Positions 1 to 57,355 are shown, numbered from the stretch's first letter. The stretch: DNA of 57,355 nt from a virus (IMGVR_UViG_3300045020_000042:1-57355); one strand, 5' to 3'. Notes: generated by a model not told the origin, from the sequence alone. Numbers and translations are program-made.

Positions 1-225
1 TGACGGCGCTCGCGGTCTGCTTCAAGAAGTTGGTGGAACTGTTTTAGAGGCGAACGGCCGACGACCGTGAAGTTCGGCCCACCAGACAGAGGTACGGAGG
101 CTCTATGCAACGCGCCCGTATTCAACCCGTAACAGCTGAGGACGAAATGGAAGACAAATCAAAGCAGCCAGTGGTAACCGTATCTGCGCCACCCCAGGTG
201 GAAAATCCACGCGCCCAGCGCCGCG
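1..225 (+). repeat. Terminal overlap, copy 1 (short allele)
   Basis: 1-116 = 56968-57083 and 117-225 = 57247-57355. The end copy has 163 extra bp. Consistent with a circular or terminally redundant assembly. Confidence 0.95.
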
Positions 226-48959: not shown

Positions 48960-49990
48960 GGCTCCATGTGAGGATGAGAAAATCGGTGGCTGACCCACGC
49001 GACTACCAAGATTCTACTCCAAAGTAAACTGTTTTTGAAAACATTTTGAAGTGGCGGTAAACACATATTTAAAAGACTTTTTCACCGCGCGTTTCTTCTG
49101 GGTGCAGGGGTGGCACGGTGCACGGAGCCGGGCTCCGAAGGGTCCAATGAACGGGATCACTAGTCACCAATAATCAAGCTCCAAGCTCCAAGCTCCGTGC
49201 ACCAAGTCTGTAATCATAATGTAATCTTATGGAATGTGGTTTTGTTCCTTTGGCAAAATTTCCCCAGGCAAAATTTTTTGCGTTTGCTGTCGCGGTTTTA
49301 GTTCCTGGCGCGCAGAGCCAGGTGCGCACCATTGGACAGCCGGCACACGACGAGCAGAGCGCCGGGCACCAGGTACTACGCACTACGAACAACAGTGAAG
49401 TACTACGCACCACGTATCATCGTCGTCGCGACGCGTATGGACTGATAGCAGATATTACGTAAAGTCGCGCCGGTCGGCTGCCGTGTGCCGAGCGCTCAGC
49501 GCCGGGCTCGATGCTCTCACTCGAGAACGTTCGACGTCGTATGATACATGGTGATATGGTGCGGTGTGGTACGTGGGTGGCTGTGGAAATCTGGAGATTA
49601 GGGCCTAGCACCGAGCCCAACGGTGTTGTGTGACATTATAACATCTCATTGTGATCATTTGTTCAATCACGAAACATTTGCTCATGAGATGTTATAACAT
49701 AACAAAGTTGTGAATCCGTCTCACAATATGAAACATTCAGAATCACGCCTGTGACGACCATGACGATGTGTCCATACGTTGATATCAACCCGGTCACAAA
49801 CGTGATAGAGACGCGCTACGTGAGTCTAAGCATGTGCGATCGGCCGGCGCGTGAACGATCGACGTCGAACGGTGACTCACACTGGTACAAGACATAGATA
49901 TCTTCACACGTATAATTCACACTAACGCGTGTGTGCACGATATAATGTAATCTAGTTCGGCGCACCACGCGGCGAACACGGCTGAGAACG
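48960..49990. promoter_or_regulatory. Divergent control region (about 1 kb) between late and early arms
   Basis: AT-richer, no credible CDS, TATAAT at 49911 and 49941, inverted and direct repeats. Confidence 0.75.
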
Positions 49991-50000
49991 GAGATTGGAA

Positions 50001-50159
50001 ATGCTCGGATACCACGCTCAATGGATTATCTGTTTGATCGAACGTCGCGCTGCTGCACTGGCACGCGGTGAAAACCACGCAGCACGTTTGATCGAAAACA
50101 AACTACGTCGCACGGTTCGTTCGATGTTTAACGACGACGATCAAATATCATACGATTAA
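50001..50159 (+). CDS. First early gene (52 aa, not in ORF track)
   Basis: GGAGA RBS; MLGYHAQWIICLIERRAAALARGEN... Confidence 0.65.
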   Translation: MLGYHAQWIICLIERRAAALARGENHAARLIENKLRRTVRSMFNDDDQISYD

Positions 50160-50161
50160 CA

Positions 50162-50215
50162 GATCGAAACGTCGCGCGAGCGGCGTTCGTACGTTACGCG
50201 TACGCTGATGAGATC
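50162..50215 (+). ncRNA. Type II hammerhead ribozyme HH1
   Basis: GATC-GAAA-CGTCGC(GCGA)GCGGCG-TT-CGTACG(TTACG)CGTACG-CTGATGA-GATC; predicted cleavage after GUU at 50187. Confidence 0.93.
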
Positions 50216-50235
50216 AACCGCTGAGGACAAAAATC

Positions 50236-50556
50236 ATGGCAAAGTTTAACTTCAAGAAGTTCAACGAACAAGAGCGCGTTGCGCTCGAACGCGCTCGCGA
50301 GAATCATCCCGGCGAGTTCTATGTTGAGATCGACTTCGCAACCGGACAGACTGACGGCGCACCGAACGACGAGACGAAAGAAATCACGCAGTATTTCGCA
50401 GCGCGCGGTCTCGACTCCGAGATCATTACGTTGAATGGTCCCGGCGGCGGTTGGCCGTCCGTGTTCGTCGTCGGAACGTTCGACAAAATTACCGCGTGGG
50501 CAAACAGCGCGGAATGGAAAGATTCAATTGATCTTGGTTTTATCAAGCCGCTGTAA
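50236..50556 (+). CDS. Early hypothetical protein
   Basis: GCTGAGGAC RBS; GPGGGWP motif. Confidence 0.8.
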   Translation: MAKFNFKKFNEQERVALERARENHPGEFYVEIDFATGQTDGAPNDETKEITQYFAARGLDSEIITLNGPGGGWPSVFVVGTFDKITAWANSAEWKDSIDLGFIKPL

Positions 50557-50565
50557 ACCAGACCA

Positions 50566-50619
50566 GATCGAAACGTCGCGCGAGCGGCGTCCGTACGTTA
50601 CGCGTACGCTGATGAGATC
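50566..50619 (+). ncRNA. Type II hammerhead ribozyme HH2
   Basis: Identical to HH1 except at the cleavage nucleotide (GUC, cut after 50591). Confidence 0.95.
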
Positions 50620-50636
50620 AACCGCTGAGGACAATC

Positions 50637-50843
50637 ATGAAAATCACGCAAATCAAGTTTGAAGTTCCGTCTGAGCAGATCGACGCAATTGAAGAACTGC
50701 TTGGTAATGAATGCGCGTTGTACGACACGTCGCTCGGCGCAGCGCTCGATAACAACGTTTTCACTGTAACTCTGCACTTCGACCCAAATATGGTCGATCG
50801 CGATACGATCAACAGTTTGCTCGACGCGATCGAATCCGTTTAA
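50637..50843 (+). CDS. Acidic early protein
   Basis: GCTGAGGAC RBS, Asp/Glu-rich. Confidence 0.75.
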   Translation: MKITQIKFEVPSEQIDAIEELLGNECALYDTSLGAALDNNVFTVTLHFDPNMVDRDTINSLLDAIESV

Positions 50844-50918
50844 CCCAGATCGAAACGCACTATACGGGCAAACCGCTAGCTCCCGATTGCTACCGCTTTT
50901 ACGCTTGAGGACAGAATC

Positions 50919-51116
50919 ATGGTCATGGTCAAATATTTCCATAACGGAAACCCAGTTACCACAGAACGCGCGTGGGAAATTATTACGCACGAGTCGGTCG
51001 ATATCGACCCAGAAGAACTTGCCGTACTCTGGCTTCATTCTCAATTTTCCGAAGAAGCACGTGACACGATTTTTGACTTGAGCGACTGCACTCTGGAGAT
51101 CGTCGTTGATGAATAA
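50919..51116 (+). CDS. Acidic early protein
   Basis: TGAGGAC RBS, Asp/Glu-rich. Confidence 0.7.
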   Translation: MVMVKYFHNGNPVTTERAWEIITHESVDIDPEELAVLWLHSQFSEEARDTIFDLSDCTLEIVVDE

Positions 51117-51222
51117 AATCGACTGGCGCGCTGTCGGCGTCGCGGTCATGGCGATCGTCGGCTGCGCGCTCGGCGCGGCCACGATCATCCTGACGTCGAT
51201 CGATCCGGACTTCATTTTGTAA
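51109..51222 (+). CDS. Small membrane protein (37 aa)
   Basis: GGAGA RBS; MNKIDWRAVGVAVMAIVGCALGAATIILTSIDPDFIL. Confidence 0.6.
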   Translation: MNKIDWRAVGVAVMAIVGCALGAATIILTSIDPDFIL

Positions 51223-51423
51223 CTTTATTACGATTCAAGATTTACATATTTTTGTACATAAGTTAGCACACCTCGTACTTCACACTATACAATGTAATCA
51301 CTGCAGTCTAACACGCCGCAGCAACGGAAATGGAAATCAAAGCTAGACGTCGTTGATGACGCTGCTGTACCAGGACCGGCACTCGTAACTGACTTTCTAA
51401 CTTTCTCGTATTGGAGATTTATC

Positions 51424-52236
51424 ATGATCGCTCAAACTGTCAAGACTTTCAAAGCGCGCTCGTCCGCGACGGACGTTCTTCGCGCTATCGGCGTACCCAC
51501 GCGTGATTACAACCTCTTCATCGAACCGGTCGACGGCGGCGTCGCATGCAAGATCGGACTCGCTCAGTCTCACGTCGAAGCGCTGAAGATCCAGACCCAG
51601 GTCGGCGGCGGCGCGCTCGTAACGACAGCAGCACCGAAGAAGTCGAGACGCGCGGTCAAGAGCGACCCAGTCGGAAAGTCGATCGCGCAGACCGCCGCGG
51701 GCATTACGAACGCTCTCAGCGACGTCGGCGCCGAAGCGGCCGCGAGCGCGATCGTCGAAGCAGCGGAGAAAGCCGTAACGCTCGTCAACCCGGCCGCGTG
51801 GCCGTTTCCGACTACGAAAGCGCTGCAGATCGCGAAGAACGCTGCCGAAGCGGGTCGCGGTCAGCGCGCGAGCGACGCGCAGACTTCCGCGAGCGTTCGT
51901 GCGACCGGACAGAACGGATCGACGGTCGTTGTTCCGAAGAACGTTGCGAAGAACGCTGGACTGAAAATCCACAAAGACGAACGTCCGTCGAAACTGAACC
52001 GCGCCGACGCGGCCGCGTTCGTGAAGAAGTCCGGGTCGACGCCGGTCACCGCGCCGGCGAAGAAGGCCGACGAGAAGCGGACCGTCTCGTCCGTCGCTCG
52101 CGCGCTGATCGTCGCGGGCAAGACGAACGAGGAGGTATGGGACGCTTTGGTCAAGGAATTCAAGCTCGACGACAGCAAGAAATCCTATCCGGCGTGGTAC
52201 CGCCGTGAATGCAAGAACAAGGGATTGATCAAGTGA
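51424..52236 (+). CDS. Ala/Lys-rich protein with C-terminal helical domain
   Basis: GGAGA RBS; C-terminus ARALIVAGKTNEEVW..LVKEFKLDDSKKSYPAWYR. Confidence 0.85.
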   Translation: MIAQTVKTFKARSSATDVLRAIGVPTRDYNLFIEPVDGGVACKIGLAQSHVEALKIQTQVGGGALVTTAAPKKSRRAVKSDPVGKSIAQTAAGITNALSDVGAEAAASAIVEAAEKAVTLVNPAAWPFPTTKALQIAKNAAEAGRGQRASDAQTSASVRATGQNGSTVVVPKNVAKNAGLKIHKDERPSKLNRADAAAFVKKSGSTPVTAPAKKADEKRTVSSVARALIVAGKTNEEVWDALVKEFKLDDSKKSYPAWYRRECKNKGLIK

Positions 52237-52276
52237 TCGATCCGACTCCGCACCTCTTGATGGGGTGCGATGACCA

Positions 52277-52315
52277 CAACTCAGAGCGAAGTTCTGGGCT
52301 CTGGGTTGCTTTTTC
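52277..52315 (+). terminator. Rho-independent terminator
   Basis: CAACTCAGAGC/GCTCTGGGTTG stem followed by CTTTTT. Confidence 0.7.
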
Positions 52316-52319
52316 ACTT

Positions 52320-52610
52320 ATTTTCACCTGTTACAGACCGTCTGTTACGAAACAGGTTACAGACGTTTTTTAAACCTCTCTAAGAAAATTCTCTCTTTCT
52401 CTCTTCTCTATCGTTTCTACTATATACTTATTTAGTAACAGTAACAGTAGTTGGTAACAGAGAGAAAGTGATGAATATTCCACATTTCCCTTACGGATCA
52501 AGAGCTTAGCGCTCGGCGCTCGGCCTTTTATCGTCTCGTCATTTCACACTGCCAATCTGTAACTGCCGTAGTTACGCTCTGCGTCCTGCGCTCGTCGTCG
52601 CGTTACGGTT
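52320..52610. other. Putative replication origin
   Basis: Three GTTAC then three GTAAC flanking an AT/CT-rich core, upstream of the primase-helicase. Confidence 0.6.
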
Positions 52611-52637
52611 TACTTTCATGAGCGCGCGCTATACTAT
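52609..52637 (+). promoter_or_regulatory. Sigma70-like promoter for primase-helicase
   Basis: TTTACT-17 bp-TACTAT. Confidence 0.5.
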
Positions 52638-52836
52638 CTTCTGGCCGGCGTCTGCCGCAGTATCCTCCGAAGTCACGCTCGTGGCTTGGCCGCATCTTCC
52701 CGGCCGATCTCTGCAAAACGTCCTCAGCCCACCTAGGACGCCGGCGCCTTTACCTGGGGCAATGGGCTGAACGCGTAGGAAACCTTGGCTGAGGACGACG
52801 CGAGAGAGGATCCGGGACTGACAGGAAGAAGTACCC

Positions 52837-54984
52837 ATGACTACTAAACGTTCGCGTTCTCCCGCGAAACCCGTTATCGACCCGTCACTTGAACTGGCCG
52901 TGACGGAGAAACTTCGATCTTCGGGGCTCGACTTCGACGACGCGCGCGCGCTCGGGATCGACGTACTCGACAAGCACGCGGTCAGGTCGCTGCACCCATC
53001 GTTCGATCTCCGTCCGGCCATCAAGATTCCCTATTTTCGTCCCGACGATCCCATATCCGCGCTTCGTTGCGGGCAGCGGCCGCCGTTCTACCGGCTCCGC
53101 TATCTGACCGACCCCCCGGCCGGCCCGTTCGGTGAACGTGAGCTGAAGCCGCGACGTTACACGAACGAACCGCGCATGGGTGTCTGCGCATACTTCCCTC
53201 GGCTGACCGATTGGCCCGCGCTGATCGCTGACGTCGACCGGCCGCTGATCATTACCGAGGGAGAACTGAAAGCAGCGTGCGCGACGAAGCACGGATTTCC
53301 TACGATCGGGCTCGGCGGCGTGTTTAACTACGCGTCGAAGGAGCTCGACTTGCCGTTTCTCGACGAGCTCGACCTGGTTTGCTGGCTCGGCCGCGCGGTC
53401 TATATCGTGTACGACTCGGACCTCGCTTCGAACAGCAACGTCTGTCTCGCGCTGAACCGGCTCGCGCGCAAGCTGCAGCAACACGGCGCGAACGTTCTCG
53501 TTGGGTTTCTCCCGTCCGTTACGGAAGGCGGCAAGACGGGGCTCGACGACTTCATCGTTCATCAAGGTTCCGACGAACTGAAGAAACTGCTCGCGGCCGC
53601 GTCTCCGATGACGACCGAGCAGGTCCTTCACCAGATGAATGATCACAACGTTTTCATCTACGAATCGGCCTCGATCTGGTCTACACTCACGTTGACGAAC
53701 CAGCCCGTGAAAGGTTTCTTTGACGCGTACGCCGCGAAGGTGTTCGAACGTCGCGAGGTCAAAGTCGATAAGGACGGACTGCCAGTACTCACGCGCAAGC
53801 CGATGCCCGCAGCGAAGGCCTGGATTGAGTGGCCGTTGAGACGTGAGGCGGGGAAACTGTCCTACGAGCCCGGCATGCCGCCCGGTCTGGTCGACCACGA
53901 AAGCGGGTACCCAGAGATGCGGAGATGGAACGTCTGGTCGGGCTGGCCGGTTGAGCCGCAACGCGGCGACATCGACCCGTTCATGACGCTGATCGATCAC
54001 GTGTTCAAGGATGTCGATGAGTCAGTCAAGCGATGGTTCTTGAGTTGGGTCGCGTGGCCGCTGCAGTTTCCGGGGACTAAGCTCTACAGCGCCGTCGTCA
54101 TTCACGGTCGACTTCACGGAACGGGCAAGTCGTTGCTCGGTGAGACAGTTGGAAAGCTGTACGGGGAGAACTTTACCATCATCGGTAATGAGGAACTTCA
54201 CGGCAAGTATAACGGCTGGGCCGCGCGTAAGCAGTTCATTCTCGGCGATGAGATTACCGGCTCGGACCGTCGCACGCTGCAGGACAAGATCAAGCGGATG
54301 ATTACCCAGACGCGGATCCGGATCGACAACAAGTACGAGAAAGCGTACGAGCTGCGTGACTGCGTTAATTACCTTTTCACGTCGAACCGTGCGAACGCGT
54401 TCATGATCGACGACGACGACCGCCGGTTGCTGATCCATGAGATGCCAGAGGATGTGGTGCTTGACGAGGAGAAGTTTTTCAAACGTGAATACGAAACGTG
54501 GATCGATTCGCGCCAGGGCCAAGCCGCGCTGCTTGACTATCTCCTGAAGTATGACGTCTGCGACTTTAACCCGAACGGACGTGCGCCGATGACGGTCGCG
54601 AAGCAGCAGATGATCTATCATTCGAAGTCCGACCTCGGCGCGTGGGTCATGCAGCTTCGCGAGTCGCCCGACCAGCTGCTGCTCGGCGCCGCTCAAGACC
54701 TGTTCACGAACGGCGAGCTGCTCGCGTACTATCAGGGCGCGGACGTCAGCGGGCGGGATAAGGTCACCGCTCAGGGGATGGGAAACGCGTTGCGTGACGC
54801 CGGCTTCGTCATGGCGAATAAGGGACAGCCGATGCGCGGGCCCGGCAGCGTCGGCCGATATTACGTCATCCGGAACCCTGAGAAATGGCGTTCGGCCTCG
54901 GTCTCGGAGCTGGGTGCTCACTTAAAGGATCCGAAACCCGTGCCGCGTGAGAAAGTCACGCCGATCAAGAAGACGAAGTACTGA
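52837..54984 (+). CDS. Toprim primase (DUF3854-like) fused to SF3 helicase
   Basis: IITEGELKA, IGLGGV, IVYDSD, KTGLDD; HGTGKS, GDEI, FTSN...DDRR. Confidence 0.9.
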   Translation: MTTKRSRSPAKPVIDPSLELAVTEKLRSSGLDFDDARALGIDVLDKHAVRSLHPSFDLRPAIKIPYFRPDDPISALRCGQRPPFYRLRYLTDPPAGPFGERELKPRRYTNEPRMGVCAYFPRLTDWPALIADVDRPLIITEGELKAACATKHGFPTIGLGGVFNYASKELDLPFLDELDLVCWLGRAVYIVYDSDLASNSNVCLALNRLARKLQQHGANVLVGFLPSVTEGGKTGLDDFIVHQGSDELKKLLAAASPMTTEQVLHQMNDHNVFIYESASIWSTLTLTNQPVKGFFDAYAAKVFERREVKVDKDGLPVLTRKPMPAAKAWIEWPLRREAGKLSYEPGMPPGLVDHESGYPEMRRWNVWSGWPVEPQRGDIDPFMTLIDHVFKDVDESVKRWFLSWVAWPLQFPGTKLYSAVVIHGRLHGTGKSLLGETVGKLYGENFTIIGNEELHGKYNGWAARKQFILGDEITGSDRRTLQDKIKRMITQTRIRIDNKYEKAYELRDCVNYLFTSNRANAFMIDDDDRRLLIHEMPEDVVLDEEKFFKREYETWIDSRQGQAALLDYLLKYDVCDFNPNGRAPMTVAKQQMIYHSKSDLGAWVMQLRESPDQLLLGAAQDLFTNGELLAYYQGADVSGRDKVTAQGMGNALRDAGFVMANKGQPMRGPGSVGRYYVIRNPEKWRSASVSELGAHLKDPKPVPREKVTPIKKTKY

Positions 54985-54997
54985 GGAGGCCACGTTT

Positions 54998-55345
54998 ATG
55001 TCCGCTTCAAGTTTCAATGATCACCGTCCTACGGTCTGGTACGTCCTCGCTCCGTCCCAGCGGCTCGCGACGTACGCGGCCCAGGAGTTCCGGCAGATTC
55101 TCAGCGACTGCGAGACGTCGAGCCGGGAGTTCAAGGCCTGGACGTGGCTCGACGCTCGCGACGTTCACGCGATCTGCTCGCCCGCCACGGTTCGCGTGCT
55201 CTATGTCGACTCGCCGCGGCCGTTCGCGTGTCTTGACCAGGCGTACAAGCGGGAGAACTGGGCCCGCGCGATGGAGGTTCTCGAGGCCGAGATGACGAAG
55301 AACCGGTCGAAAGACCACTGGTACGTCCGGCTCGTCCTGCCGTAA
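54998..55345 (+). CDS. Hypothetical protein
   Basis: GAGGAGG RBS. Confidence 0.7.
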   Translation: MSASSFNDHRPTVWYVLAPSQRLATYAAQEFRQILSDCETSSREFKAWTWLDARDVHAICSPATVRVLYVDSPRPFACLDQAYKRENWARAMEVLEAEMTKNRSKDHWYVRLVLP

Positions 55346-55354
55346 CCGCATTCC

Positions 55355-55392
55355 ATTATGTACATTCACATTCGACATACTATAATCTAGTT
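55355..55392 (+). promoter_or_regulatory. Promoter candidate
   Basis: TATAAT at 55381 in an AT-rich gap; TAATCTAGTT shared with the promoter at 49941. Confidence 0.55.
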
Positions 55393-55436
55393 ACGGTCAC
55401 TCACGACCGCAAGCGAACTCTCTGGCTGAGGACAAC

Positions 55437-55847
55437 ATGAAACTTGAACGTTTTGACAAGCTGACCGCGAACGCGCTGGTCGCACGGCTGAACGCGGCCC
55501 TGAAGGGGCTGGGCGAAATGTACGGCGTTACGTTGAATATCAACGGCGGTTCGATCCAGACGCCGACCGCGATGAAGCTGAACCTCGAAGCAACGATCGC
55601 CGGTACGGCTTCGGTCCGCCTGCAGCGCGCCAGCGACGACCTGCGCCGCTACCGCGACCTGTACCTGCCCGGCGTCGACCTGGAACAGCTCTACGCGCAC
55701 TTGACGCTCGGCTTGGTCCGGATCACCGGATTTAACGCGCGCGCGCCGAAACTGCCCGTGCTCGTTACGGCCGAAGACGGGAAGGTTTACCGCATGACCG
55801 TCGACTCCGTCAAACGCATGACCGCTCACGCCCCGAGGACAGCATGA
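55437..55847 (+). CDS. Hypothetical protein
   Basis: GCTGAGGAC RBS; ITGFNARAPKLPV...DGKVYR. Confidence 0.8.
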   Translation: MKLERFDKLTANALVARLNAALKGLGEMYGVTLNINGGSIQTPTAMKLNLEATIAGTASVRLQRASDDLRRYRDLYLPGVDLEQLYAHLTLGLVRITGFNARAPKLPVLVTAEDGKVYRMTVDSVKRMTAHAPRTA

Positions 55848-56005
55848 AAACTTTCACTATCGTTTACAAGCGGCTTGGGTTCAAGACGAACCTGCGCGCT
55901 CACGTTCCCGCGCTGTCGGCACTCGACGCACAGGACATCTTTCTCACCGACATCGCGCCGCGCATCATGATCGAGCGTCTCGACGTCTTTCACGGACTGG
56001 TCTGA
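55844..56005 (+). CDS. Small hypothetical protein
   Basis: GAGGAC RBS, ATGA coupling; MKTFTIVYKRLG... Confidence 0.65.
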   Translation: MKTFTIVYKRLGFKTNLRAHVPALSALDAQDIFLTDIAPRIMIERLDVFHGLV

Positions 56006-56007
56006 CC

Positions 56008-56160
56008 GTGAGCAAGCGGTATCGCGTCATCGTTGAGATCGGAGGACAGAGGTTGTTCTCCGGGTCTCTTTCGCAGTGCGAGCAGTACATCAGGGACAAT
56101 GGTCTTGTTCTTGAGTACCGCTCGTCTGCTCACCCGCACCTTTACGTGAGCGGAGTCTGA
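56008..56160 (+). CDS. Small hypothetical protein
   Basis: GTG start, fills the gap exactly. Confidence 0.5.
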   Translation: MSKRYRVIVEIGGQRLFSGSLSQCEQYIRDNGLVLEYRSSAHPHLYVSGV

Positions 56161-56161
56161 C

Positions 56162-56350
56162 ATGTTCAAGATCCTGATTACCACCCGGTACTGGTCATCG
56201 TCCGGGTGCAACGTTCATACCATCGTCGAGTCATTCGATACCGAGCACGACGCGTTGACGGCCGTGCGGGTCATCAACACCTGCGCGAAGTCGGGCATGG
56301 ACTCCTCGGTCAACCGCGAAGCGATCGCGCTGTTTGAGGTACGGTTATGA
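56162..56350 (+). CDS. Hypothetical protein
   Basis: GGAG RBS. Confidence 0.7.
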   Translation: MFKILITTRYWSSSGCNVHTIVESFDTEHDALTAVRVINTCAKSGMDSSVNREAIALFEVRL

Positions 56351-56529
56351 GTCCGGTCCAGTTCACACCGCCGTCGCGGCCCGTGCATACCGAGCTCGTC
56401 ATGCTCGCGCACGGTTACATGGAAGTCACGGTCGTCAACGCCGACGAGCCCAACCCGCTCAAGCGTGTCGCGGTCCTGCGCCGCACGGTCGACTATCGCG
56501 ACGTCTGCATCGAGGGCTGGGTGTCATGA
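56347..56529 (+). CDS. Hypothetical protein
   Basis: GAGGT RBS, ATGA coupling. Confidence 0.65.
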   Translation: MSPVQFTPPSRPVHTELVMLAHGYMEVTVVNADEPNPLKRVAVLRRTVDYRDVCIEGWVS

Positions 56530-56624
56530 TCTGGCTCTTTGTCCTCGGCTCATACTGCGCCGTGTCCGTTACCGCGGCCGCGGCATTCTCGCTGTTGTTT
56601 ATCGGCTCGCGCCTGAGGGACTGA
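56526..56624 (+). CDS. Small membrane peptide
   Basis: MIWLFVLGSYCAVSVTAAAAFSLLFIGSRLRD, coupled. Confidence 0.5.
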   Translation: MIWLFVLGSYCAVSVTAAAAFSLLFIGSRLRD

Positions 56625-56626
56625 CG

Positions 56627-56893
56627 ATGGAGATCCTTTACTCTCACAACCTGGGCGGGAACGTACACGCCGCCGTTGCCTGGGTGAACAAGTTCGACCT
56701 CGCCGAGCGCGTGATCCAGATCGTCCCGGTCGATAGCTGCGCGACGATCATCGTCTTGCGGATGAACCTGCGGGACTACGTGTATTACGTGTACGACCGC
56801 AAGCGCCTGTCCTCACGCACGAACCTCGACGACTTGGCGAGGAAGCACGGCCTGCTCGCGTTCGACATGCGGCAAGGCCATTACATCGTTTAG
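56627..56893 (+). CDS. Hypothetical protein
   Basis: GAGGG RBS before MEILYSH. Confidence 0.65.
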   Translation: MEILYSHNLGGNVHAAVAWVNKFDLAERVIQIVPVDSCATIIVLRMNLRDYVYYVYDRKRLSSRTNLDDLARKHGLLAFDMRQGHYIV

Positions 56894-56903
56894 GAGCGCG
56901 CTC

Positions 56904-57014
56904 ATGATTGCGACGCTGCAGGAGCTTGGAGTCATCGCGGTCGACGCCGTAGCCGTACTCGGGTTCGTGACGGCGCTCGCGGTCTGCTTCAAGAAGTTGG
57001 TGGAACTGTTTTAG
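56904..57014 (+). CDS. Small membrane peptide (36 aa)
   Basis: TAGGAG RBS, hydrophobic. Confidence 0.6.
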   Translation: MIATLQELGVIAVDAVAVLGFVTALAVCFKKLVELF

Positions 57015-57099
57015 AGGCGAACGGCCGACGACCGTGAAGTTCGGCCCACCAGACAGAGGTACGGAGGCTCTATGCAACGCGCCGGGGAAAGCCCGGTCA

Positions 57100-57152
57100 G
57101 GTCGAAAAGGTCGGGAGGACCTTCGCAGCGTGAGGCGCTGCCTGATGAGACC
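57100..57152 (+). ncRNA. Type II hammerhead ribozyme HH3
   Basis: GGTC-GAAA-AGGTC(GGGAG)GACCT-TC-GCAGCG(TGAGG)CGCTGC-CTGATGA-GACC; predicted cleavage after UUC at 57124. Confidence 0.92.
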
Positions 57153-57168
57153 CTAACCGAGGTGCCGC

Positions 57169-57355
57169 ATGGCCCGACTGATCAAGGTATCAAAGCTGCA
57201 GGCCCAGATGCTGAGTCGTGTCGGCGTCGCCACGGTCCGCGTAACTCGTATTCAACCCGTAACAGCTGAGGACGAAATGGAAGACAAATCAAAGCAGCCA
57301 GTGGTAACCGTATCTGCGCCACCCCAGGTGGAAAATCCACGCGCCCAGCGCCGCG
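57169..57355 (+). CDS. 5' part of the long-allele version of the gene ending at 563
   Basis: GAGGT RBS; MARLIKVSKLQAQMLSRVGVATVRVT-RIQPVTAEDEMEDK..., in frame with 117-563. Confidence 0.65.
   Translation, partial: MARLIKVSKLQAQMLSRVGVATVRVTRIQPVTAEDEMEDKSKQPVVTVSAPPQVENPRAQRR

What the first reader, a model, noticed from the sequence alone, without database searches (positions are those of the whole stretch)
50160..57160. Three type II hammerhead ribozymes punctuate the early region: a candidate self-processing mRNA system
Seen: three complete hammerhead cores (CUGAUGA, GAAA, NUH) with full stems I-III at 50162-50215, 50566-50619 and 57100-57152, all sense to the early genes. Each is followed within a few nt by AACCG, then an RBS and ATG. 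HH1 and HH2 begin within about 10 nt of the previous stop codon. HH3 has different stem sequences but the same geometry (4-bp open stem II, 6-bp stem I, 5-nt loop I starting with U), which is covariation inside one genome. Established: hammerheads self-cleave to give 2',3'-cyclic phosphate and 5'-OH ends, 5'-OH RNAs are poor substrates for 5'-monophosphate-stimulated RNase E, and isolated type II hammerheads are known in phages with unclear roles. Inference: a reusable ribozyme-plus-RBS cassette cuts the early polycistron into stabilised units without protein, analogous to the RNase III sites of T7 early RNA.
Basis: partly seen in the sequence, partly recalled or inferred. Interest (0 to 1): 0.93.

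Follow-up and report, generated by a model that had tools for sequence, protein, structure and literature searches.

The report
Three phage hammerhead ribozymes between genes
Three genuine self-cutting hammerhead RNA motifs sit between early genes of an uncultured soil phage, an arrangement already described for phages, and one of them lies on a short stretch that only part of the phage population carries.

Summary
Window 50162-50215, 50566-50619 and 57100-57152 (+ strand) each carry a complete type II hammerhead. All conserved core positions are present, with a 4-bp open stem II, a 6-bp stem I with a 5-nt loop, and a closed stem III. The predicted cuts fall after 50187, 50591 and 57124. Chance gives about 0.007 such motifs per genome. 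A covariance model built only from 145 hammerheads of other viral contigs scores the three sites at 57-62 bits, and the next best match scores 13.7. Rfam's own model misses them at its threshold.

Clustered hammerheads that flank single genes in prophages, and the idea that they cut polycistronic RNA, were published in 2011, with cleavage shown in vitro and in vivo. This same sub-architecture is abundant in viral contigs: at least 159 copies in 116 of 120 loci, typically arranged stop codon, ribozyme, ribosome-binding site, ATG.

Three points may be new. HH3 lies on a 163-bp stretch that is present in one copy of the overlapping contig ends and absent from the other, and both forms occur in the likely source run. 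HH1 and HH2 belong to a 71-nt repeat that flanks one gene. Rfam under-detects this subclass. Cleavage and mRNA stabilisation remain untested.

The parts
49889..49916 (+). Sigma-70-like promoter candidate (AAGACA-16-TATAAT) for the rightward early operon
   Evidence: Consensus scan. This is a match to a pattern only, not proof of function.
49995..50159 (+). First small ORF of the operon. An in-frame ATG lies at 50001 with GGAG 7 nt upstream. The TAA stop is at 50157-50159, 2 nt before HH1.
   Evidence: No family match.
50160..50230 (+). Copy 1 of the 71-nt direct repeat, made of HH1 plus AACC plus the RBS GCUGAGGAC
   Evidence: family D3
50162..50215 (+). HH1, a type II hammerhead. The cleavage triplet is GUU and the predicted cut is after 50187.
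   Evidence: Model R2 scores it at 57.0 bits, E 1.7e-18. Rfam RF02276 gives 20.4 bits, below the gathering score of 37.
50236..50556 (+). 106-aa ORF flanked by HH1 and HH2, function unknown
   Evidence: PHROG 5922, unknown function, E 7e-7. No Pfam match. No named relative in the protein atlas.
50564..50634 (+). Copy 2 of the 71-nt direct repeat
   Evidence: It is 99% identical to copy 1; the single difference is H17 (C at 50591 against T at 50187).
50566..50619 (+). HH2, a type II hammerhead. The cleavage triplet is GUC and the predicted cut is after 50591.
   Evidence: Model R2 scores it at 62.3 bits, E 2e-20.
50637..50843 (+). 68-aa acidic ORF directly downstream of HH2
   Evidence: No family match.
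52837..54984 (+). Primase/helicase gene, which marks this block as the replication (early) module
   Evidence: PHROG 1156, E 3.7e-40. 931 relatives in the protein search.
57084..57246 (+). 163-bp stretch present in the end copy of the contig overlap and absent from the start copy. It carries a short hairpin, HH3, an RBS (GAGG), an ATG at 57169 and 26 codons.
   Evidence: The likely source run holds both forms: a joint from 57083 to 57247 at depth 8.7, and a 223-nt contig with the insert at depth 12.6.
57100..57152 (+). HH3, a type II hammerhead with different stem sequences. The cleavage triplet is UUC and the predicted cut is after 57124.
   Evidence: Model R2 scores it at 61.1 bits, E 5.2e-20. 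No Rfam hammerhead hit.
57169..57355 (+). Reading frame that opens at the cassette's ATG and runs in frame into the downstream gene (MEDKSK...)
1..225 (+). Start copy of the contig-end overlap (short allele). Positions 1-116 equal 56968-57083 and positions 117-225 equal 57247-57355.
   Evidence: both at 100% identity
105..563 (+). Gene downstream of the HH3 site. Possible starts are ATG 105 (GGAGG upstream) or ATG 147 (GAGGA upstream). The insertion point is after its 12th base if ATG 105 is used.
   Evidence: The only database entry is its own 138-aa form.

Best explanation
The window is a complete, circularly assembled genome of about 57 kb from an uncultured soil phage. Its rightward early/replication operon carries three type II hammerhead ribozymes.

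Shown from sequence: each motif has every conserved core position, namely C3-A9 (CUGAUGA), G12-A14, the A15.1-U16.1 pair, H17 that is not G, and the G10.1-C11.1 pair. Each has three helices, of which only the 4-bp stem II is open.

Inferred mechanism:
- As RNA polymerase finishes each motif, the RNA folds and cuts itself after H17. This gives a 2',3'-cyclic phosphate on the upstream piece and a 5'-OH on the downstream piece.
- In the type II topology the two products are held together only by the 4-bp stem II, so they should separate easily.
- The upstream mRNA then ends in the G+C-rich stem III hairpin. The downstream mRNA begins with the stem I hairpin, followed 16-20 nt after the motif by an ATG preceded by an RBS.
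- The polycistron is therefore split into units whose translation and decay no longer depend on the neighbouring cistron. The units are the 52-aa ORF, the 106-aa ORF, and the 68-aa ORF with everything downstream. In the genomes that carry HH3, the distal part of the operon is split off again.
- Whether the net effect is stabilisation is not known.

HH1 and HH2 are a recent 71-nt duplication of ribozyme plus RBS around one gene. HH3 is a separate acquisition or loss: it lies on a 163-bp indel for which the sampled population is polymorphic.
For: Motif and chance: searches give 3 observed against about 0.007 expected.

Independent model: R2 was built from 145 hammerheads of other viral contigs. 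It scores the three sites at 62.3, 61.1 and 57.0 bits, and the next best match in the whole genome on both strands scores 13.7 bits.

Fold: the three-way junction is the minimum-free-energy structure of each isolated motif.

Stem variation: HH3 keeps all pairs with different letters. Across the 3 window motifs and 4 motifs from three related phages, 99% of cells pair, and 13 of 17 pairs change on both sides.

Related phages:
- The closest relative found (L081, primase 62% identical) has the same kind of ribozyme directly after a stop codon and before the homologue of window ORF 51424-52236.
- L114 (2 copies) and L118 (1 copy) have the same layout.

For 149 copies with usable flanks:
- an ORF of at least 50 codons ends within -45 to +8 nt of the motif in 133;
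- an ORF of at least 40 codons starts within 90 nt after it in 142;
- the antisense control gives 48 and 80;
- the median gap from stop codon to ribozyme is 1 nt, and from ribozyme to start codon 23.5 nt;
- stem II is exactly 4 bp in 143.

Operon direction: the promoter-like site and the gene content.

Published precedent for activity:
- passages of PMC3088659 report triple hammerhead clusters that cleave in vitro and in vivo;
- abstract and passages of PMC8782182 report three type II hammerheads of Desulfovibrio vulgaris, near phage-like genes, that cleave in vivo.

Indel.
Against: - No RNA data exist for this phage, so transcription of the + strand and cleavage are both inferred.
- Rfam's curated Hammerhead_II model does not reach its gathering score for any of the three sites.
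- HH1 has U at H17. None of the 149 viral copies has U there (137 have C, 12 have A), so HH1 may be slower or a decaying copy.
- HH3 has C at the first position after stem II, where 139 of 149 copies have A or G.
- The pseudoknot reported as important for fast cleavage in many type II hammerheads (PMC3088659 passages) has no support in this subclass. The tertiary contact is therefore only guessed.
- In longer context the predicted minimum-energy fold of the HH2 region pairs upstream sequence with the CUGAUGA segment. This could compete with the active fold.
- The covariation count is partly circular, because the sequences were picked by a scanner that demands pairing.
- The run that shows both indel alleles is probably the sample the contig was assembled from, so it is not independent support.
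Confidence: 0.8

Rival explanations
1. The ribozymes are active, but they serve timing or down-regulation rather than stabilisation. Cleavage would disconnect cistrons from the protected 5' end of the primary transcript, or its rate would be modulated. One possible modulator is a ribosome terminating at the stop codon that abuts the ribozyme and transiently unfolds stem II and the GAAA strand.
For: The stop codon lies a median of 1 nt from the ribozyme in 133 viral copies. The conserved A just before stem II is often part of that stop codon. In the window the gaps are 2 and 9 nt. The discussion of PMC3088659 raises regulated cleavage for phage hammerheads. The longer HH2 context has a predicted competing fold.
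Against: The tight spacing may simply reflect genome compaction. Nothing here measures rates or RNA half-lives. HH3 does not abut a stop codon.
Confidence: 0.15
2. The ribozyme-plus-RBS units are mainly selfish or recombination-prone modules that spread or are exchanged within and between phage genomes. On this view their effect on expression is neutral or secondary.
For: - HH3 sits on a 163-bp indel without microhomology at its ends, and both alleles are present at comparable depth.
- HH1 and HH2 are a 71-nt near-perfect repeat around one gene.
- Copies within one viral locus resemble each other more (0.61 identity at variable columns, 115 pairs) than copies from different loci (0.36, 10,325 pairs).
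- Only 3 of 160 loci of related phages carry such ribozymes.
Against: - No terminal repeats, target duplication or associated enzyme were seen.
- No second copy of the 163-bp stretch occurs in the genome or in the phage collection.
- The strict sense orientation and fixed geometry across 149 copies point to selection for function.
Confidence: 0.12
3. Cuts at HH1 and HH2 release a 404-nt RNA carrying the 106-aa ORF. Its 5'-OH and cyclic-phosphate ends are brought together by the GAUC/GAUC stem II, and it is ligated into a circular mRNA, either by the ribozyme itself or by a host RtcB-type ligase.
For: The two identical ribozymes lie in direct orientation 404 nt apart, so joining the two ends would recreate a full hammerhead. 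Circular products were considered for such clusters in PMC3088659. Retrozymes in plants work this way; for PMC4918200 I saw only the title and abstract in the listing.
Against: PMC3088659 states that spliced or circular products were looked for and not detected. No RNA data exist here.
Confidence: 0.05
4. The motifs are inactive relics or chance look-alikes.
For: All three fall below Rfam's threshold. HH1 has the rare U at H17 and HH3 the rare C after stem II.
Against: The chance expectation is about 0.007 per genome. All core positions are intact. The sites score 57-62 bits with an independent model. HH3 has fully compensated stems.
Confidence: 0.04

Closest known systems
Clustered hammerhead ribozymes flanking genes in prophages (Agrobacterium tumefaciens ardA cluster, Azorhizobium caulinodans, Clostridium scindens; PMC3088659, passages read)
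   Same: Several hammerheads lie within a few kb, sense to the genes, flanking single genes or short blocks in phage DNA. Processing of a long phage transcript into single-gene mRNAs was proposed. Type II topology is among those described.
   Different: The published type II consensus has a pseudoknot between loop I and the 3' tail. The copies here and their viral relatives show no pseudoknot potential above chance. Instead they have a fixed 4-bp stem II flanked by A and by A or G. Activity is shown for the published clusters and not for this phage. I could not see that paper's supplementary figures and alignments, so this sub-architecture may already be listed there.
Three type II hammerheads of Desulfovibrio vulgaris near phage-like genes (PMC8782182, abstract and passages read)
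   Same: Type II topology and a phage-gene neighbourhood. Both cleavage fragments were captured from cellular RNA, which shows that such motifs cut in vivo.
   Different: Those three lie at separate places in a bacterial chromosome. Here the motifs lie in one operon of a free phage genome, and two of them flank one gene.
HHphage of haloviruses HF1 and HF2 (PMC3088659 discussion)
   Same: The ribozyme lies a few nt (13) upstream of the start codon of an early gene, and the mapped 5' end of the transcript lies next to the cleavage site.
   Different: It is an archaeal virus, the ribozyme has a core variant that needs high salt, and there is a single copy.
RNase III processing sites of the phage T7 early transcript (recalled, no call)
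   Same: An early polycistron is cut between cistrons, and hairpins are left at the new ends.
   Different: That system depends on a protein (host RNase III) and leaves 5'-phosphate and 3'-OH ends. Here the RNA itself would cut and leave 5'-OH and cyclic-phosphate ends.
RiboJ-type synthetic ribozyme insulators (recalled, no call)
   Same: A hammerhead is placed just upstream of an RBS. It removes the upstream context and leaves a 5' hairpin.
   Different: RiboJ is an engineered part derived from a satellite-RNA hammerhead of another topology. The copies here are natural and use the type II topology.

Membership tests
Hammerhead ribozyme | Conserved core: C3 U4 G5 A6 N7 G8 A9 and G12 A13 A14 | tested here: met
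   CUGAUGA and GAAA are present in all three sites.
Hammerhead ribozyme | A15.1-U16.1 pair, H17 not G, and standard pairs next to the core (10.1-11.1 and 1.1-2.1) | tested here: met
   A-U closes stem III in all three sites. H17 is U, C and C. G10.1-C11.1 and the first pair of stem I (C-G, C-G, G-C) are present. These are the acceptance rules described in the methods passage of PMC3088659.
Hammerhead ribozyme | Three helices around the core, supported by compensatory changes | tested here: met
   The three-way junction is the minimum-energy fold. 13 of 17 pairs change on both sides in 7 sequences, with the caveat that the sequences were chosen by pairing. Model R2, which excludes the window, scores the sites at 57-62 bits.
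Hammerhead ribozyme, type II (Rfam RF02276) | Stems I and III closed, stem II open | tested here: met
Hammerhead ribozyme, type II (Rfam RF02276) | Score at or above Rfam's gathering threshold (37 bits) | tested here: not met
   No hit at gathering score. HH1 scores 20.4 bits and HH3 gets no hit. The model also finds only 3 of 35 same-subclass copies in 10 other loci (counts). The miss therefore reflects the model's coverage of this subclass.
Hammerhead ribozyme, type II (published consensus) | Pseudoknot of at least 4 bp between loop I and the 3' tail | tested here: not met
   In 149 viral copies of this subclass the longest loop-tail helix averages 2.55 bp, against 2.52 +/- 0.06 for permuted partners. 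Helices of at least 4 bp occur in 19 copies, against 21 expected. The window copies can form only 2-3 bp, by my own reading. PMC3088659 states that about 40% of all hammerheads use a pseudoknot, so this is not an obligatory feature.
Hammerhead ribozyme | Site-specific, Mg2+-dependent self-cleavage giving 2',3'-cyclic phosphate and 5'-OH ends | not testable with these tools
   No RNA run holds this stretch.
Clustered phage hammerheads that process polycistronic RNA | Several copies in one transcription unit, sense to the genes, between ORFs | tested here: met
   for the window. One search gives the same layout in 127 of 149 viral copies, against 30 of 149 in the antisense control.
Clustered phage hammerheads that process polycistronic RNA | Processed single-gene mRNAs observed | not testable with these tools
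   No RNA data

The most novel reading that the evidence does not exclude
Ribozyme-plus-RBS units in phages are discrete modules that are gained and lost, and they drive gene-cassette turnover.

- The 163-bp HH3 unit carries a ribozyme, an RBS, an ATG and 26 codons that read in frame into the next gene. It would be a recent insertion still segregating in a natural population.
- The 71-nt HH1/HH2 repeat would be the footprint of a single-gene cassette inserted by recombination at such a unit.
- The near-universal abutment of these ribozymes to the upstream stop codon would couple cleavage to translation termination.
Probability: 0.15. Interest if true: 0.6.

Novelty: new member of a known kind. 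Interest (0 to 1): 0.3.

Why it matters
The biological role of the thousands of hammerheads in phage DNA has been open since 2011, and the 2019 review passages still call it undefined. This genome adds nothing new in kind.

It does offer a compact natural case. Two identical ribozymes bracket one small early gene within 700 nt of a likely promoter. A third is present in only part of the population, which amounts to a natural with/without comparison.

Two practical points follow:
- Rfam's type II model at its gathering score found only 3 of the 35 copies of this pseudoknot-free subclass in the 10 loci tested. Phage annotations that rely on it may therefore under-report these ribozymes.
- The type II topology leaves a hairpin at both new RNA ends and only 4 bp holding the products together. 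This gives a testable reason why this form is placed between cistrons.

Tried and rejected
Rfam scans:
- The whole window at gathering score gave nothing.
- The 8.4-kb region at E<=10 gave only chance matches to RNA-OUT and two microRNA families.

Close relatives:
- blastn of 49900-57355 against the phage collection gave one 98-nt match of no relevance.
- The primase alone against viral contigs gave none.
- The exact HH1/HH2 pattern in viral contigs gave none.
- blastn of the 163-bp stretch gave three 26-nt matches at E 0.5, taken as chance.
- blastn of the HH1-HH2 unit gave no match.

Related loci: the strict scanner on 80 primase-related viral loci found 0 hammerheads. Model R1 on 160 related loci found only its own training sequences, plus two weak matches at E 0.11 and 0.92. 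The ribozymes are therefore sporadic in this phage group, not a conserved feature of it. Some of the 160 loci are the same contig fetched from two collections.

Proteins: the HH-flanked ORFs have no Pfam family and no homologue in any fetched locus. The gene after HH3 has no relative in the protein database other than itself. I therefore could not tell from relatives whether the 163-bp stretch is a gain or a loss.

Pseudoknot between loop I and the tail: rejected for this subclass.

RNA evidence: no RNA holder was listed. The part 50231-50604 had no laid contig, which that tool says proves nothing.

Direct terminal repeat: I considered that the contig-end overlap is a physical direct terminal repeat with two unlike copies, and rejected it. 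The source run's contigs run unbroken through the overlap borders, and the shared flanks are at single depth (16.8 and 15.6). This fits a circular map with one two-allele bubble.

Supplementary files of PMC3088659 (figures S1-S6 and the alignments) were not seen, and they may already contain this sub-architecture and its gene contexts.

Papers:
- PMC3088659: passages.
- PMC6765202: passages.
- PMC8782182: abstract and passages.
- PMC4918200 and PMC13725137: search listing only.
- The search was badly worded and gave nothing useful.
- The phrase 'type II hammerhead' occurs in 4 papers of the library.
- 'Stop codon' does not occur in the main text of PMC3088659. That is my only basis for saying the stop-codon abutment may be undescribed.

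Full report
What the window is. The window is the whole record: one contig of 57,355 bases with G+C near 62%.

- Positions 1-116 repeat 56968-57083 and positions 117-225 repeat 57247-57355, both at 100% identity. The contig is therefore a circular map that was assembled a little more than once round.
- The + strand, from about 49.9 kb across the junction to about 24 kb, carries a primase/helicase (52837-54984; PHROG 1156, E 3.7e-40), a DNA polymerase and a helicase.
- The - strand between 26 and 48 kb carries the terminase, portal, connector and tail genes.
- The two blocks diverge from a low-G+C spacer at 49.4-50.0 kb. This spacer holds a promoter-like site, AAGACA-16-TATAAT, at 49889-49916 on the + strand.

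The observation. All three motifs are present exactly where stated.

- Each has CUGAUGA, GAAA with its last A paired to U16.1, an H17 that is not G (U in HH1, C in HH2 and HH3), and G10.1-C11.1.
- Each has a closed stem III, a closed 6-bp stem I with a 5-nt loop starting with U, and an open 4-bp stem II.
- A scanner I wrote for all three hammerhead topologies, on both strands, returns these three sites and no others. In 300 first-order Markov shuffles it returned 2 type II hits in total.
- Each isolated motif folds into the three-way junction as its minimum-energy structure.
- HH1 and HH2 are not independent. They belong to a 71-nt direct repeat (50160-50230 and 50564-50634) that also includes AACC and the RBS GCUGAGGAC. 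They differ only at H17.
- HH3 has different letters in all three stems and keeps every pair.

Rfam.

- No family reaches its gathering score.
- HH1 reaches RF02276 at only 20.4 bits, against a gathering score of 37, in a 101-nt search.
- HH3 gets no hammerhead match at E<=10.
- This is a limit of the model and not of the motifs. In ten other loci that hold 35 hammerheads of the same build (counts), Rfam reports 3.

Relatives. No close relative is in the phage collection.

- Through primase alignments I fetched 160 loci of related phages, 36-62% identical in the primase. Some are the same contig fetched from two collections.
- Only three loci carry this ribozyme: L081 (the closest, 62%), L114 (two copies) and L118. 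L049 has a possible type I copy.
- In every case the ribozyme follows a stop codon directly and precedes an RBS and an ATG.
- In L081 the gene after the ribozyme is the homologue of window ORF 51424-52236, not of the genes after HH1 or HH2. The ribozymes are therefore sporadic and not positionally conserved in this phage group.
- AACCG is not conserved in these relatives.

The wider class. Of these, 116 hold at least one copy that passes the stem tests: 159 copies in all, up to 9 per locus.

A covariance model built from 145 of them, from the first 100 of the 120 loci and with no window sequence, scores the three window sites at 62.3, 61.1 and 57.0 bits. The next match in the genome scores 13.7 bits with filters off.

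Among 149 non-redundant copies with usable flanks:
- 133 have an ORF of at least 50 codons ending within -45 to +8 nt of the motif;
- 142 have an ORF of at least 40 codons starting within 90 nt after it;
- the antisense control gives 48 and 80;
- the median gap from stop codon to ribozyme is 1 nt (quartiles -1 and 3), and from ribozyme to start codon 23.5 nt;
- stem II is exactly 4 bp in 143;
- the base before it is A in 144, and the base after it is A in 122 and G in 17.

The pattern itself fixed the C before GAAA, U16.1, H at 17, the G-C pair closing stem I, the first loop letter U, and CUGAYGAG. Those positions therefore carry no information. The context, the length of stem II and its flanking bases were free.

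Pseudoknot potential between loop I and the tail is no higher than with permuted partners. This subclass therefore does not use the pseudoknot of the published type II consensus. The flanking A and purine may stand in for the first and last letters of a stem II loop, which is my guess.

Against this background HH1's U17 is unusual (0 of 149), as is HH3's C after stem II (6 of 149).

How it most likely works.
- Shown: intact ribozyme motifs in sense orientation, between cistrons, each followed by an RBS.
- Established elsewhere: such motifs cleave in vitro and in cells (PMC3088659 passages; PMC8782182).
- Inferred:
  - Each motif cuts itself after H17 during or soon after transcription.
  - In the type II form the two products share only the 4-bp stem II, so they part.
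  - The upstream RNA ends in the stem III hairpin with a cyclic phosphate. The downstream RNA starts with 5'-OH and the stem I hairpin, just before its RBS.
  - This uncouples each cistron from its neighbours.

The 163-bp indel. Positions 57084-57246 are present in the end copy of the overlap and absent from the start copy. The flanks are identical and there is no microhomology at the junctions.

- In the contigs of run X1, which is probably the source sample and so not independent, a contig joins 57083 to 57247 at depth 8.7. A 223-nt contig carries the insert at depth 12.6. The long flanking contigs are at 16.8 and 15.6. This is the picture of a two-allele bubble in one circular genome.
- The stretch holds a small hairpin, HH3, GAGG, an ATG at 57169 and 26 codons that continue in frame into the next gene.
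- In the short allele an ATG at 105, with GGAGG upstream, reads into the same frame.
- The database's own gene call starts further down, at MEDKSK, so the in-frame fusion may be incidental.
- The gene has no relatives, so the direction of the event is unknown.
- Copies within one viral locus are more alike than copies from different loci (0.61 against 0.36 identity at variable columns). This fits duplication or conversion within genomes, as with HH1 and HH2.

Comparison with what is known. [quoted passage not shown] They state that this implies processing of long phage transcripts into operon-length or single-gene mRNAs, and that three such clusters cleave in vitro and one in vivo. They also state that circular or spliced products were sought and not found. 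The 2019 review repeats the processing hypothesis and says the purpose is still undefined. The finding is therefore a new member of a known kind.

Verdict. What may be worth keeping:
- the segregating HH3 allele;
- the ribozyme-plus-RBS duplication around one gene;
- the stop-codon abutment statistics;
- the poor coverage of this subclass by Rfam.

Interest is 0.3.

Noticed in passing
window 1-225 and 56968-57355: The contig ends overlap: 1-116 equals 56968-57083 and 117-225 equals 57247-57355. The true circular map is therefore 56,967 bp (short allele) or 57,130 bp (long allele), not 57,355 bp.
   Followed up: yes
window 49629-49704: A 21-nt inverted repeat (86% complementary, 34 nt between the arms) lies in the low-G+C spacer between the divergent operons, overlapping a second promoter-like site at 49630-49658. 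It may be an operator or another regulatory site. Rfam gives only chance-level matches here (RNA-OUT, 19.4 bits).
   Followed up: partly
window 50535-50650: In longer context the predicted minimum-energy fold pairs UGGUUUUAUCAAGC, upstream of HH2, with the CUGAUGAGAUCA segment. This would compete with the active hammerhead fold. It is a prediction only.
   Followed up: no
window 50236-50556: The 106-aa protein between HH1 and HH2 has a weak structural resemblance (TM 0.50, below the tool's bar) to a viral S-adenosylmethionine lyase cluster, among other unrelated rows. This is a lead only. The neighbouring 68-aa and 65-aa proteins look strongly acidic by my own reading of their sequences; I did not compute charge.
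   Followed up: partly
L049:13732-13782: A possible type I hammerhead (stems of 5, 6 and 3 bp) lies downstream of the primase in a related viral contig. It was not examined further.
   Followed up: no
L182 (11 copies), L163 (6), L194 (4): Some viral contigs carry very dense arrays of this ribozyme, with up to 11 matches to model R1 in 8.5 kb and one between almost every pair of small genes. In ten such loci Rfam's RF02276 reaches its gathering score for only 3 of 35 copies.
   Followed up: partly
L167:4534-4583 and L255 (minus strand, 2502-2551): Two related viral contigs have near-identical flanks, but the ribozyme differs by compensated changes in stem I (UAGCCG/CGGCUA against CAGUCG/CGACUG). 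This is covariation between orthologous copies.
   Followed up: no
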